Of a DNA stretch of 64,000 nucleotides, positions 6,601 through 12,600 are shown one piece after another (position 1 is the first letter of the stretch; every line of letters begins with the position of its first letter). The notes beneath the pieces were generated by a model, which saw only the letters and a program-made list of their open reading frames with translations, had not been told where the DNA came from and did not search any database. The translations under genes were made by a program, and so were the position numbers. This stretch comes from Eledone cirrhosa (Eukaryota): positions 188,976,001 through 189,040,000 of the forward strand of contig OZ024741.1 of the NCBI GenBank assembly GCA_964016885.1, written 5' to 3'.

Positions 6601-9600
6601 AAGAGGGAGGAAAAGGGAAGAAAATGAAAAATAAAAAGAAGTAAAAGGTGGGAGGAGGAATGGGGGAGGAAGTGGATGTAAAAAAAGGAATAGGATGGTT
6701 TGTAGAAATTAAGATAACTGCTGTATATAATTGATAATGAAGAATGAATAAAATAAAAATTATATATAATATAAAGAATTGAATAAAATATAAAGAAAAC
6801 TATCAGAATATTGTAGTGATGAAAAAATAAGAAGGGCTTTCTTTGATTAGCACCTTGACACAGCTCAACCATGAGACTACAGTTATAACCTAAAAACTGA
6901 ATTTCCTGGACTTGAACACATGCCTATATTGACTGTACCACAAGCTGAACAGAAGAAACAACACCTCCATTAACAGAGGTTCCAAGCATTCACCCATCAT
7001 CACCTGGTAAAGAGTGAACATCAGTAGATGAATATCTAGTCTGACTTTGAACAGCGATATTCAACATAGCTGTCCCTTACCACAACAATGCATTGAAAAA
7101 AATGCAACTTCAACAAAAAATAAGGTACTTTGAGTCCGCCCCAGCCAGGAATCGAAAGCCCAGAATCTGAAAGGTTAAATGGAATAATCCATTGTACAGT
7201 CTTGATGTTTCCACTATCACTAACATTGTTGTATGCTTTCTTTCCCCATCTCAGATTGGTACCACAAATTATGCAATAAGAATATGGTTAAAGTTAGCTA
7301 CATCCAACTATATTACACGCACACACACATGTCTAACCCATGCTAGCATGGAAAATGGACGTTAAATTGTGATGATGATGATATATATATATAGTTAAAA
7401 ATGAACGAACAAAACACAGAAGGCAATTGTACACACACATGTATAACATTGACTTTGCTAATGACGTAAAGAGCAGGTCTCCATTACATCTTTCTCTTCA
7501 GAAGATATTTTCTACAGATGGAAATGGACTGAAATATTATTGGAATTGGGGATTTGTTAACAGCTATTTACCCAGTACTTTTGAAATGTTGAAAAGATTA
7601 GAATAGTGATTCAATAATTGGCCAGGTCAGAGAGGCTCCCTTTTTCGTAGATGATACATACTGTAGTATATATTTAATGATAATGACAGATTCCTGTTGA
7701 GATAGATAGCTTTAAGATATATATCTTTCATCATAGATACTATCTATTATTTTCTTTCCCACACTTGTATCTTATTGATAGGAATGGGAAGAAAGATTGC
7801 TTCGGATCCAAAGTACCATTGATGAATGGCTGAAGGTACAGGCGCAGTGGTTGTACCTGGAGCCAATCTTTTCATCGGAGGATATTATGCAGCAGATGCC
7901 TGAAGAAGGAAGGTTCTTCCAGGTGGTTGATACCTCATGGAAGAATATTATGAAGAATACGCTAAAGGACCCCAAGGTATAGTAATATTGATTTCTAATC
8001 TAGGCACAAGGCCAACAAAGCTGGGAGAAGGGCAAGGTTGATTAAACCAATTCCAGTATTTGGCTGATACTTTAGTTTATCAACCCCAGAAGGATGAAAC
8101 GCGAAATTGACCTTAGCAGGACTTGAACTCAGAATGTAGAGCCAGAACATACTGCAGCTACCATATTTGTTTGATAACTATATTGATTTTTAAAACTCCC
8201 AAATACTGATGGTTGCTGGATGCTGTGTTTGTGGAAATGTTACATATTCTAGGATGCTTTTTTATGCTGCCTTTTTTAATATCTGTGTATGTTCCATCAT
8301 CTCATTGCTTGCAGAGGTGCTGCATGTCTTCTTTGAATGCTACATATATTTTCTTTAGTTGATGCTTGTTTCAATTTTTCAATGATGCTGGCTTCTGTTT
8401 GGATGCTACACATTTATTTTGAATGGCTTAGTGGTTAGAGTGTTGGGTTCACAATCATGAGGTTGTGCGTTTGATTCTGCTTGTGACTTGAACAAGACAC
8501 ATTATTCTATGTTGTTCCAGTTTACTCAAATGGAAAAATTTAGTTGTGATGTCACTGGTGTCAAGCTGTCTCGGCCTTTGCATTTCCCTTGGACAACATT
8601 GATGGCATGAAGAGGGAAGAGTAGTATGCATGGGTGACTGCTGGTTTTCCACAAAATACCTTGCCCAGGGTTGTGCCTCAGGGGGAAACTTTCTAGATGC
8701 AAATCCATGATCATTCATGATTGAAGGGGGCCTACAATGCTTCTTTAGGCTACAAATTTGCTTTGAATGATGCATGTCTTTGTTAATCAGGTGATGGTTG
8801 CAACAAACTTTAAAGGTCTTTATGAGAAACTATTGGAATCTAATGGTTTATTGGAAAAAATTAACAAGGGGCTGAACGCATACCTGGAAAAGAAGAGGCT
8901 ATTCTTTCCTAGGTGAGTGGTTACTTTTCATTTATTGATTTGGCCATATGGTATTGACATATATGCTGTGATATCCTCATTATAAAATCCACTTTATTAT
9001 CTTTCTTTCTCCCTCCCTCTCTAATACACACTAACACATATCATTAAATGATGATGATATATAATATTAATGAGTATAATCAAAGTTGCAGCTGCAAGTA
9101 GCAGCTCAGCCTCGATCATCGAAGACTGCCACAAAGCACTCGATGATAGAATAATTAATAAATTGCTCCTGAGAGTGAACACAAGAAGTTAAGTAATAGT
9201 GACACAAATATGCAAATCTGGTTGATCAGTGGGTCTGCTAATATGCAGATCTGACTGATCAAGCAGTCTGCTAATATGCAAATCAGGCCGATCAGTCACT
9301 GTATATTCCAGAAAATATCATATATTTTCACTAGCTCTGACAGTTTACAGGTAAATAGTATATGGTACTGATGAAGGGTAATAACCCAGAAACATTAGCG
9401 TCTGCCGTTTTGTTTGTATGCCAACACAAGGGCAAGAATGATGGGGCCATTCTACTGACATGGCTTATTTGCAAACAAATCGAATATTATATTAATATTC
9501 GAAATTTCTTGTATTCAGCAATAAAACTATTTGTTAGTTATTATATATATATATATATATATATATATATATATATATATATATACAAATTAAAATGCAA

Positions 9601-12600
9601 AATTAGAAATAGAAGCCAGGACTATCCATCATCAGTGGTCTACTAGCCATCATAGGTATTTCTTCGCAGAAATACCTATGATGGCTAATAGACCACTGAT
9701 GATGGATAGTCCTGGTTTCTATTTCTAATTCTTCATTTTAATTTGTATATCACATTTGCAACAACAGAGGAGTTCAAGACCGGCTGCCCATGGGAACTCC
9801 TATACGCAGATGATCTAACGCTCATAGCTGAATCAATGGATGAACTAGAGAAGAAATTCCAAAGATGGAAGCATGGCCTAGAATCAAAAGGCCTTAAAGT
9901 TTAAAGTCCTAGTTTGTAGAAAGGAAAATAAGGCACAGGTACCCTCAAGGAAATGGCCATGCAAAGTATGGGTACATAAAAGATGTAGTGGGGTCACAGG
10001 TAAACTATCTAAGAACGTAGACTTTATATGTGGCTGATGCTCAGGTGCAATAGGTAGCAAGTGGCCACAGGATACTAGCTCCCTCTATTGCCCAGATGGT
10101 TCTATAGAAATAGTAGACACTTTCCATTACCTGGGTGATAAAATCAGCAGTGGTGGAGGGTGTTCTGAAAGTACAGTAGCCAGAGTCAGAACGGGATGGA
10201 AAAAGTTCAGAGAGCTTATACTGCTGTTGGCCACAAAAGATTTCTCTCTAAAAATGAAAGGCAGATTGTATGATGCTTGTATACGAACAGCAATGCTACA
10301 TGGCAGTGAGACATGGGCATTGTGCAGAGGACATGCACAGACTGGAAAGGAACGAAGCTTGCATGCTCCGTTGGATGTGTAATAGTAATATACGTGAACG
10401 GCAAAGCATAAATGAACTAAGTGAGAAATTAGGAATAAGAGGGATCAGATGCTGTTTACTTGAGAGAAGACTACGTTGGTATGGCCATGTGATGCGCATG
10501 AAAGACGACAGCTGTATAAAAAAGTGCAGGGCGATCAAATTGATGGTAGTTACGGAGTAGGTACGATTTGATAAATTCCGACCTTACACACTTGCACCTC
10601 TCTAAGACAATGTCATTGGATCGAGATCTTTGGAGCTACGCAGTAATACAGAAGACCCGACTTGCCTAAGTACAAAGCGAAACCTACAGTCAGTAGGTAC
10701 CTCTTATCCAAATATACACCCCAATCCACTACCCCTACCCTATCCTCCCACTCCCACCAACACCACCCTCTCTCTGTAAAGTTGGTACCACAACATCCAG
10801 TCCAAATAAATGAGATAATGAGATCGAGATCATGTAGGTGTCATGACAAAAAAACACAGTCCATGCTGTAATGTGGCCGTGTAGGTAACACGATAAAAAG
10901 TTCCCAGTTCCACATTGTAAATGTGGTTGGTGTTAGGAAGGGCATCCAGCCGTAGAAAACCTGCCAGATAGTCCTATATGAGCGAGACACGGGAAAACTC
11001 CCGTCTAACCCATCCTAGCATGGAAGATGGACGTTAAACGAAGATGATGATGATATATATATATACAAATTAAAATGAAGAATTAGAAATAGAATCCAGG
11101 ACTATCCATCATCAGTGATCTACTAGCCATCATAGGTATTTCTGCGAAGAAATACCTATGATGGCTAGTAGACCACTGATGATGGATAGTCCTGGCTTCT
11201 ATTTCTAATTCTTTATTTTCATTTATATATCATATTTGCAACAACACAGCACGCCATTTTTCATTCCTATATATATATATATATACATATATATATATGT
11301 ATATACATATGCATACACATACACACACATATATACATACTCACAGGCATAGACACACATACATACACGTCGGCGTGTCTGTGGATAAACATACATGCAT
11401 GTGGATCAGTGCACCCAACATACACACCCAAGTATATATGTGCTAGGACATATGCCTAGAGAAAATCCTACAAGATTATATGGTGGTATAAAATTTTGGT
11501 AAATAGCTTTAACCCTTTAACATTTACATTACTGTATATATACTACTATATTTTCATGATAAAGGCTTTACCTCACATGATATCTCACATAGTATTGAAA
11601 CTATTAGATTTTGATATTATTTATTTTGAGAACAATACCTTAACATCAGTATGAGTTGCCAGTTTGAACAGAAAGAGGTAAGAGAATTCTTACTGGTTTA
11701 ACCCTTTAGCATTCACATTAATTTGTTAAATGTCATGTTTATCTGTTCACATTATTTTCCGTTAATCATACTCAAGAGGGTTATCAATTTTATTTGTTTG
11801 TAATTTTCTTAATTTTCTATGTGCAGGCTTGAAATTTTCTCAGTAGATGTTAAAATATCAAAAATTTACAATTATATATTTTTACTGGATTCTTTTTGTT
11901 AAATTTGACTTTTATGGGCAGGTGAAATTAATTAATAGGGGCATTTGAAGTATCAACCAGGTGCAAATACTGGTTTAATTTCTGCAGCATCTGTCGGTCG
12001 CCAAACAGATCGGGTTTCCTCGATTTGAAATCTGTTGTTGGGCATATTGATTAATCTCTTCTGCCACAACTTCGAAGAAAGTTTGTGGCAAAAACAAAAA
12101 GAAATAATCCAGTGCTTTAGCATCGGGAGCTAATGTGTGTTGTGGACCAGTATTTTGAATAAAATTGGAAACATATATTGGTGCGGTATTTTTGAACCAC
12201 GTTGCTGTAATATTTTCAATGGCGTCCTGGAGACCTCCTTCGTTTTCACTTTCAAAACAACAATCATCATTCATTCATTCATTTCATTTTACGTCCGCTT
12301 TTTCCCTGCTTGCAAGGGTGGGACGGGAACTGATTCTGGCTTGATTTCTACAGCTGGATGCCCTTCCTAACACCAACCTCATTTACAGTGAGTGCTGGGT
12401 ACTTTTTTGCCGTGGCACCTCCACGAACACTTTGCAGTGGAATGATAGGGACTGGGGTCCCTATCATCTCATTTCTACAGCTGAGTAAACTGGAGCAATG
12501 TGAAATAAAGTGTCTTGCTCAAGGAAACAACACATCACCCGGTCTGAGAATTGAACTCACAACCTTTCGATTGCAAGGCCAATGCTCTAACCACTAAGCC

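What the first reader, a model, noticed from the sequence alone, without database searches (positions are those of the whole stretch)
9581..11248. RTE LINE flanked by a ~185-bp direct duplication of a palindrome whose loop is flipped (flip/flop)
Seen: the 170-bp palindrome plus its unique 3' flank (cacatttgcaacaac / catatttgcaacaac) occurs directly before the LINE 5' end and again directly after its (GAT)n tail, 1480 bp apart. The unique flank keeps the same orientation, but the loop is TCGC in one copy and GCGA (its reverse complement) in the other, and gaagccagg sits on opposite arms. The LINE 5' junction uses acag microhomology. Known: C. elegans RTE-1 makes ~200-bp target-site duplications. 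Inference: this is a giant TSD in which the single-stranded target folded into a hairpin and was inverted during gap fill. The alternative is a hairpin element that exists in flip and flop isomers, as in rolling-hairpin replicons.
Basis: partly seen in the sequence, partly recalled or inferred. Interest (0 to 1): 0.75.

Follow-up and report, generated by a model that had tools for sequence, protein, structure and literature searches.

The report
LINE duplication splits Penelope hairpin strands
A jumping gene (a LINE) sits between two copies of one 170-base mirror-image DNA stub, likely left by a Penelope-type jumping gene, and the four-base loops of the two copies read in opposite directions, likely because the LINE entered while the stub's two strands still disagreed there, which would be a rare snapshot of how such stubs are joined.

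Summary
The duplication (194 bp, 1480 apart) and the mirrored loops (TCGC/GCGA) are real. The palindrome is a head-to-head stub of a ~560-bp repeat family (907 arm matches) with Penelope-like ends. Its junction occurs only twice in the 3.0-Gb genome, both here, so the copies descend from one insertion. Removing the LINE plus one copy restores a normal family member, so the repeat is the LINE's target-site duplication. It is a one-off: 0 of 127 other sites where an RTE/SINE tail abuts such a stub show it, and 39 sister LINEs have no clear duplication over ~60 bp. The flip/flop-replicon idea fails, and 'gaagccagg on opposite arms' is just the family's common state. Best guess for the loops (0.45): two Penelope cDNAs ending in TTCGCA paired imperfectly (4 of 6), and the LINE split that heteroduplex, so each copy kept one strand. 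The polarity fits. Main rival (0.3): later spacer inversion by template switching. Reads could not test the empty allele.

The parts
9542..9580 (.). Left (TA)n tract, the shared target of both element families
   Evidence: family ends lie in (TA)n; 20 of 39 sister LINE tails are followed by (AT)>=2
9573..9766 (+). Left copy (A) of the 194-nt target-site duplication
9581..9663 (-). Copy A inverted arm (AL), 5'-truncated Penelope-like repeat, ends at the family's tail-less 3' site
9664..9667 (.). Copy A loop TCGC (the inverted arm is the longer one)
9668..9750 (+). Copy A forward arm (AR)
9751..9766 (+). First 16 nt of the family's 37-nt tail, cut off by the LINE; the last 4 nt (AACA, 9763-9766) are the 5' microhomology
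   Evidence: loose ends begin at 9763 in reads from other LINE copies
9763..11054 (+). 5'-truncated, decayed RTE-like LINE (end of RT, PHD-like region, 3' UTR, (GAT)4 tail at 11043-11054)
   Evidence: 2.7% from the majority of 39 sister copies
11053..11246 (+). Right copy (B) of the duplication
11061..11143 (-). Copy B inverted arm (BL)
11144..11147 (.). Copy B loop GCGA (the forward arm is the longer one; mirror of A)
11148..11230 (+). Copy B forward arm (BR)
11231..11267 (+). Complete 37-nt tail of the Penelope-like family
11268..11310 (.). Right (TA)n tract

Best explanation
One head-to-head stub of a likely Penelope-type repeat is present twice, as a 194-bp target-site duplication on either side of a 5'-truncated RTE-like LINE, and its mirrored loops likely record the two strands of a mismatched junction that the LINE split before repair. 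Inferred steps: (1) both ends of a cut in (TA)n prime a cDNA on the Penelope-type RNA, one from the tail-less site and one from the tail site; (2) both cDNAs stop at the same place, ...TTCTTCGCA-3'; (3) their last six bases pair with each other, 4 of 6 (T-A, T.C, C-G, G-C, C.T, A-T), and each is extended on the other, so both strands read TCGC 5'->3' at the centre; (4) before ligation and mismatch repair, the bottom-strand 3' end in the left (AT)n primes reverse transcription of the RTE RNA; (5) the two strands part cheaply into two hairpins, and the LINE cDNA joins the top strand 16 nt into the tail through AACA; (6) fill-in gives the left copy the top-strand loop (TCGC) and the right copy the bottom-strand loop (GCGA on the + strand). 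It is a single accident, not a system.
For: Shown: the junction 30-mer (<=1 mismatch) has 1 forward and 1 reverse match in 3.0 Gb, both here, against 907 matches of an arm 30-mer and 12 other tight palindromes with other junctions. Family 3' ends fall on two fixed sites (39 and 38 of 108 segments), as described for Penelope-like tails (PMC11167929, parts 1-2 of 4 read). All 9 arm differences are private to one arm, and the four-arm majority equals the commonest family haplotype (25 of 78), so no mutation predates the duplication. Arms (9 of 332, 2.7%) and LINE (2.7%) have the same apparent age. TTCGCA is the best self-pairing register of those tested for this end (4/6, our-locus rows). The longer arm ends exactly at TTCGCA in 3 of 13 other family junctions, and 3 of 57 segments from 40 unselected loci start within 3 nt of that site (about 0.3 expected if uniform). 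Mirror-image junction pairs recur at unlinked loci in a second family, as expected if either strand of such a junction can be kept. The polarity predicted by the model (left copy has the long inverted arm) is the one seen; this is worth only a factor of two. Parting the inferred unmutated 193-bp site into two hairpins costs 39 kcal/mol against 206 for random 193-mers. No gradient of arm homogenisation at 11-60 bp from the loop in 38 palindromes, so frequent long-tract flips are unlikely.
Against: One locus only: 0 of 127 other abutting sites show any such duplication, so the predicted fixed polarity could not be tested. It needs two retroelement RNAs at one open site, a low prior. A 1-nt microhomology between a long and a short cDNA explains the junction as well; the inner-pair test on other junctions was inconclusive (8 junctions). 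The left edge in (TA)n fits ordinary RTE targeting too (20 of 39). BR plus tail has 4 changes within 20 nt, three at family-polymorphic sites, that AR lacks, although the model has AR copied from BR's cDNA; they must then be later changes (two of these changes also occur singly on the common haplotype). Zero shared mutations only bounds the pre-duplication time to under about 0.6 of the time since (my estimate). No autonomous Penelope ORF was linked to this family.
Confidence: 0.45

Rival explanations
1. The LINE made a long, hairpin-assisted target-site duplication at an already repaired palindrome, and one loop was inverted later by an ordinary template switch or exchange between the inverted arms.
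For: Loop and spacer inversions between inverted arms are documented (PMC8794818 and PMC8604942, passages seen); they are recurrent even with 10-bp arms and leave no trace in perfect stems. The inner stems are perfect for 20 and 25 bp. RTE copies here often sit in (AT)n. Strand separation is cheap. Extremely long TSDs with 5'-truncated L1 are reported (PMC2912911, passage).
Against: Needs two rare events. No unflipped long duplication was seen in 127 abutting sites, although these should outnumber flipped ones. No arm homogenisation gradient (blind to the inner 10 bp). No mutation predates the duplication.
Confidence: 0.3
2. One reading: the loop was inverted during fill-in of the single-stranded duplication, by a nascent strand switching onto the other copy's hairpin.
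For: Both strands of the palindrome are single-stranded and close together in a TPRT intermediate (inference); hairpins of about -95 kcal/mol would form. Fits the absence of shared mutations no worse than a sequential model.
Against: Needs invasion of a folded 83-bp hairpin and a switch back. Predicts no polarity. The arm marker cited for it is the family's common state.
Confidence: 0.13
3. No real inversion: two point substitutions, two independent insertions with mirror junctions, or an assembly error.
For: The loops differ at only 2 bases. Mirror junctions do arise independently in a second family. Locus-specific reads were not obtained.
Against: Double substitution p about 3e-4 to 7e-4. 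The junction occurs nowhere else, only 14 tight palindromes of this family were found genome-wide, and copy A's tail is cut exactly at the LINE. Each arm carries private differences, which a collapsed or copied assembly would not give.
Confidence: 0.08
4. A hairpin element with flip and flop isomers, as in rolling-hairpin replicons.
For: Two mirror loops on near-identical arms.
Against: The family has no fixed loop: junctions vary from copy to copy, most copies have no palindrome or long unequal arms, 5' ends are scattered and 3' ends fixed, as for a retroelement. This loop occurs at no other locus.
Confidence: 0.02

Closest known systems
EN+ Penelope-like element insertions with an inverted 5'-truncated pLTR and a 30-40-bp tail (PMC11167929, parts 1-2 of 4; PMC8557442, passages and sections 6, 20; PMC3846280, passages)
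   Same: Partial tandems, head-to-head inverted 5' copy, two fixed 3' ends 37 nt apart, (TA)n target; PMC3846280 also reports pLTRs carrying unrelated sequence in trans.
   Different: No ORF and no canonical hammerhead found in the 560-bp unit; here the stub is duplicated around a LINE with mirrored junctions, which I did not see in the passages read.
Long target-site duplications of non-LTR retrotransposons (5'-truncated L1 in HeLa, via PMC2912911 passage; 'several hundred nucleotides' in PMC1291365 passage; C. elegans Rte-1 ~200 bp, recalled, not read)
   Same: 5'-truncated LINE, direct repeats at both edges, short 5' microhomology.
   Different: RTE TSDs are mostly 7-15 bp (PMC6007223, passage citing Ichiyanagi and Okada 2008) and at most ~60 bp in 39 sister copies; here the duplication is almost all hairpin and its two copies differ by a mirrored loop.
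Twin priming of L1 5' inversions (PMC2912911, passage)
   Same: Two cDNAs primed from both target ends and annealed at short complementarity.
   Different: Twin priming gives non-overlapping inverted pieces; here both cDNAs cover the same sequence, which gives a palindrome.
Loop/spacer inversion by template switching (PMC8794818, PMC8604942; passages)
   Same: A short spacer between perfect inverted arms is replaced by its reverse complement; arms unchanged.
   Different: There it is a replication error between alleles; here both forms lie in cis as the two halves of one duplication. It remains the main rival.

Membership tests
Penelope-like element (non-autonomous) | Partial tandem repeats (pLTR) with an inverted 5'-truncated copy | tested here: met
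   ~560-bp unit in tandem and inverted arrangements
Penelope-like element (non-autonomous) | 30-40-bp tail on one end (two RT start sites) | tested here: met
   Two fixed 3' ends, 39 and 38 of 108 segments; 37-nt tail at 11231-11267
Penelope-like element (non-autonomous) | AT-rich or (TA)n target | tested here: met
   3' ends run into (TA)n in most rows
Penelope-like element (non-autonomous) | Linked ORF with telomerase-like RT and GIY-YIG endonuclease | tested here: inconclusive
   Such ORFs exist in the genome (L051) but belong to other pLTR families; no partner found among the loci fetched
Penelope-like element (non-autonomous) / retrozyme | Canonical hammerhead ribozyme | tested here: not met
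   No hammerhead in Rfam scan of 6 loci; one CTGATGA without a downstream GAAA. Naiads also lack it (PMC8557442 section 6), so this lowers 'retrozyme', not 'Penelope-like'
RTE-clade LINE | Single ORF of about 1050 aa with AP endonuclease and RT | tested here: met
   Long sister copies give weak EN and clear RT Pfam hits; full-length homologs of 1030-1100 aa carry PF03372 + PF00078, many with PHD
RTE-clade LINE | 3' end in short tandem repeats | tested here: met
   (GAT)n tail here and in sister copies; the 3' UTR (about 350 nt, by eye) is longer than usual for RTE
RTE-clade LINE | RT phylogeny groups with RTE references | not tested
   No named reference sequences came back; the clade name rests on architecture and recall
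Target-site duplication | Direct repeats whose edges are the element's edges, and a sensible single-copy empty site | tested here: met
   removing the LINE plus one copy gives (TA)n-palindrome-full tail-(TA)n like other family members
Target-site duplication | Empty allele observed | tested here: inconclusive
   Contigs too short and RAD-seq off target
Rolling-hairpin flip/flop termini | One fixed terminal hairpin present in two isomers across copies | tested here: not met
   Junction unique to this locus; junctions vary across the family

The most novel reading that the evidence does not exclude
A fossil snapshot of a Penelope integration intermediate: an RTE reverse transcription hijacked the open ends, pulled the two strands of the unrepaired junction apart and fixed each in its own copy. 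It would show directly that Penelope's inverted repeats form when two equal-length cDNAs pair at their 3' ends through an imperfect palindrome, and that two retroelement classes can act at one break.
Probability: 0.4. Interest if true: 0.68.

Novelty: new variant of a known kind. Interest (0 to 1): 0.42.

Why it matters
How Penelope-like elements make their tandem and inverted structures is stated as open (PMC8557442, passage; PMC11167929 says the later steps are not validated). If the heteroduplex reading holds, duplications of this kind preserve both strands of the junction and give a sequence-only test of the joining step, with a fixed polarity to look for. If the rival holds, it is a tidy coincidence of a hairpin-assisted long duplication and a known mutation type, with no function. 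Either way it is a single dead locus.

Tried and rejected
Empty allele and read check: 9 runs listed; contigs X1, X4-X6 and RAD-seq X7-X9 were laid. Repeats swamped the signal, no piece spans a loop with unique flank, and the one contig joint 9754-11237 (depth 19) is what any other family copy gives. Long TSDs as an RTE habit: 39 closest copies, best 59 nt (L088); a ~100-nt 80% match in low-complexity sequence (L080) was not counted. Second cases: 10 other sites of this family; 50 of 57 arm-end sites of family F2, 45 with the element's 5' end inside the stretch; 67 of 69 tail-end sites (30 had only 1.5 kb upstream, room not checked). Upstream look-alikes at L206, L236, L244, L281 are separate insertions (79-86% identity; other subfamily or junction). 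Insertion order at these sites is unknown, so the usable number is perhaps half. A pattern for SINE 5' ends inside the F2 tail gave 0. The A-LINE junction has no second copy among 40 scored candidates, so a mobile composite is not supported. The first junction census mis-anchored F2, counted our locus several times and used a biased null; it was redone and only its register score for TTCGCA is used. A model with a palindromic RNA carrying the LINE was dropped: it does not give copy A's tail and needs a source locus that is absent. Literature searches for a LINE duplication spanning a Penelope palindrome or heteroduplex found nothing on point in the listings. No supplements were read.
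Full report
Observation. The window holds two copies of a 170-nt palindrome (83-nt arms, 4-nt spacer) at 9581-9750 and 11061-11230, inside a direct repeat spaced 1480 nt. The exact repeat is 9573-9766 vs 11053-11246: 8 nt of (AT)n, the palindrome and 16 nt of unique flank. 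The loops are TCGC and GCGA; outside them the copies differ at 10 positions. Between them lies a 5'-truncated, decayed LINE ending in (GAT)4. Its 5' microhomology is AACA, not ACAG.

The palindrome is a Penelope-like stub. It belongs to a dispersed family (1910 candidates, 40 scored; 907 matches of an arm 30-mer). The unit is about 560 bp and occurs singly, in partial tandems and head to head. Its 3' ends fall on two fixed sites (39 and 38 of 108 segments) and run into (TA)n, while 5' ends are scattered (that sample is biased towards short palindromes). This is the inverted-copy-plus-tail layout described for Penelope-like elements (PMC11167929; PMC8557442; PMC3846280). I found no hammerhead and no linked ORF, so the assignment rests on architecture. 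Earlier notes of this scan describe such stubs in other families of this genome.

The two copies come from one insertion. The junction 30-mer with up to one mismatch occurs once on each strand in 3.0 Gb, and both hits are here. Of 14 tight palindromes found genome-wide, the other 12 have other junctions. Copy A's tail stops after 16 of 37 nt, exactly where the LINE starts, and the full tail follows copy B. Removing the LINE and one copy leaves an ordinary family member (compare). The repeat is therefore the LINE's target-site duplication. There is no fixed hairpin with two isomers: the inverted arm is the longer one in 8, the forward arm in 4 of 13 other junctions of this family, and 19 vs 16 (9 equal) of 44 in a second family.

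It is a one-off. In the 39 closest LINE copies no clear duplication exceeds about 60 nt; 20 of 39 tails are followed by (AT)n. RTE duplications are mostly 7-15 bp (PMC6007223). At 127 other sites where an RTE or RTE-tailed SINE ends directly at a stub (10 in this family, 50 + 67 in the second), none duplicates the stub. At least 5 of these could not be judged, and insertion order is unknown. The palindrome does make a long duplication cheap: 39 kcal/mol to part the inferred unmutated site into two hairpins, like a ~32-bp duplex, against 206 for random 193-mers.

Why the loops are mirrored (inference). If both Penelope cDNAs stop at ...TTCTTCGCA-3', their last six bases pair 4 of 6. Mutual extension then gives a top strand reading TTTCT-TCGC-AGAAA, the junction of copy A, and a bottom strand that reads TTTCT-GCGA-AGAAA on the + strand, the junction of copy B. 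In target-primed insertion the left copy keeps the top strand and the right copy the bottom strand, which is the polarity seen. That end is recurrent: the longer arm stops there in 3 of 13 other junctions, and 3 of 57 segments from 40 unselected loci start within 3 nt of it. The four-arm majority equals the commonest family haplotype, so no mutation predates the duplication, and arms and LINE are both about 2.7% from their family state. Mirror-image junction pairs recur at unlinked loci in the second family. On this reading the LINE used the open ends of a Penelope integration intermediate.

Against it. It rests on one locus and needs two element RNAs at one break. A 1-nt microhomology between unequal cDNAs gives the same junction, and the inner-pair test on other junctions was inconclusive. 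BR and its tail carry four changes within 20 nt that AR lacks; three are family polymorphisms, and two of them occur singly elsewhere on the common haplotype, so I read them as later changes, but this is not shown. Later spacer inversion is a documented mutation type (PMC8794818; PMC8604942) and would leave no trace in the 20- and 25-bp perfect inner stems. Mismatch density in 38 palindromes is flat from 11 to 60 bp off the loop (3.7, 4.2, 4.7, 2.7, 4.6%), which argues only against frequent long-tract switches. Reads did not test the empty allele or the assembly.

Verdict. The duplication reading is right (about 0.9) and the flip/flop replicon is rejected. For the loops I put heteroduplex capture at 0.45, later inversion at 0.3, a flip during fill-in at 0.13 and artefact or chance at 0.08; these are my judgement, not computed. 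The parts are known, and the combination was not found in my searches. The LINE has RTE-like architecture, but its clade was not tested by a tree. Interest is moderate: a dead single locus with one sharp, testable implication for how Penelope inverted repeats form.

Noticed in passing
L009, L110, L150 junctions: In three unlinked palindromes the long arm ends at ...TTCGCA and the short arm starts with ACC, from three different places in the unit; this may reflect added bases at a capped RNA end that guide the join.
   Followed up: no
window 11214-11233: Four changes cluster in the outer 20 nt of copy B's forward arm and tail; three match variants seen in other family haplotypes (recurrent mutation or conversion from another copy).
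   Followed up: partly
L051:1-3000: A Penelope-like element of another family with RT and GIY-YIG ORF pieces and a long inverted copy of its 3' end at the 5' side.
   Followed up: partly
L212-L261 and many other loci: A much more abundant stub family (F2, 55-65-bp arms, tail of about 70 nt) whose junctions cluster within about 10 nt and recur in both mirror forms.
   Followed up: partly
L164 near 1699 and L168 near 2409: Two copies of the family are interrupted at the same arm-end TATA by an element starting TAGCA...CCCGGCGTT.
   Followed up: no
L093:1223-1560: An abundant ~340-bp SINE whose 3' part resembles the RTE 3' end and ends in (GAT)n; often stacked with RTE and Penelope-type stubs in one (TA)n tract.
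   Followed up: partly
L088 (oriented 3730-3788): A sister RTE copy with a 59-nt duplication that starts in (AT)n, the longest clear one among 39.
   Followed up: partly
window 27008-27930: A second RTE-like copy (81% to this one) with (AT)n at both ends and no long duplication.
   Followed up: partly
window 34089-36139 and 9207-9298: A 53-bp tandem array of 38 copies with strong strand skew, and a 33-bp repeat of 2.8 copies.
   Followed up: no
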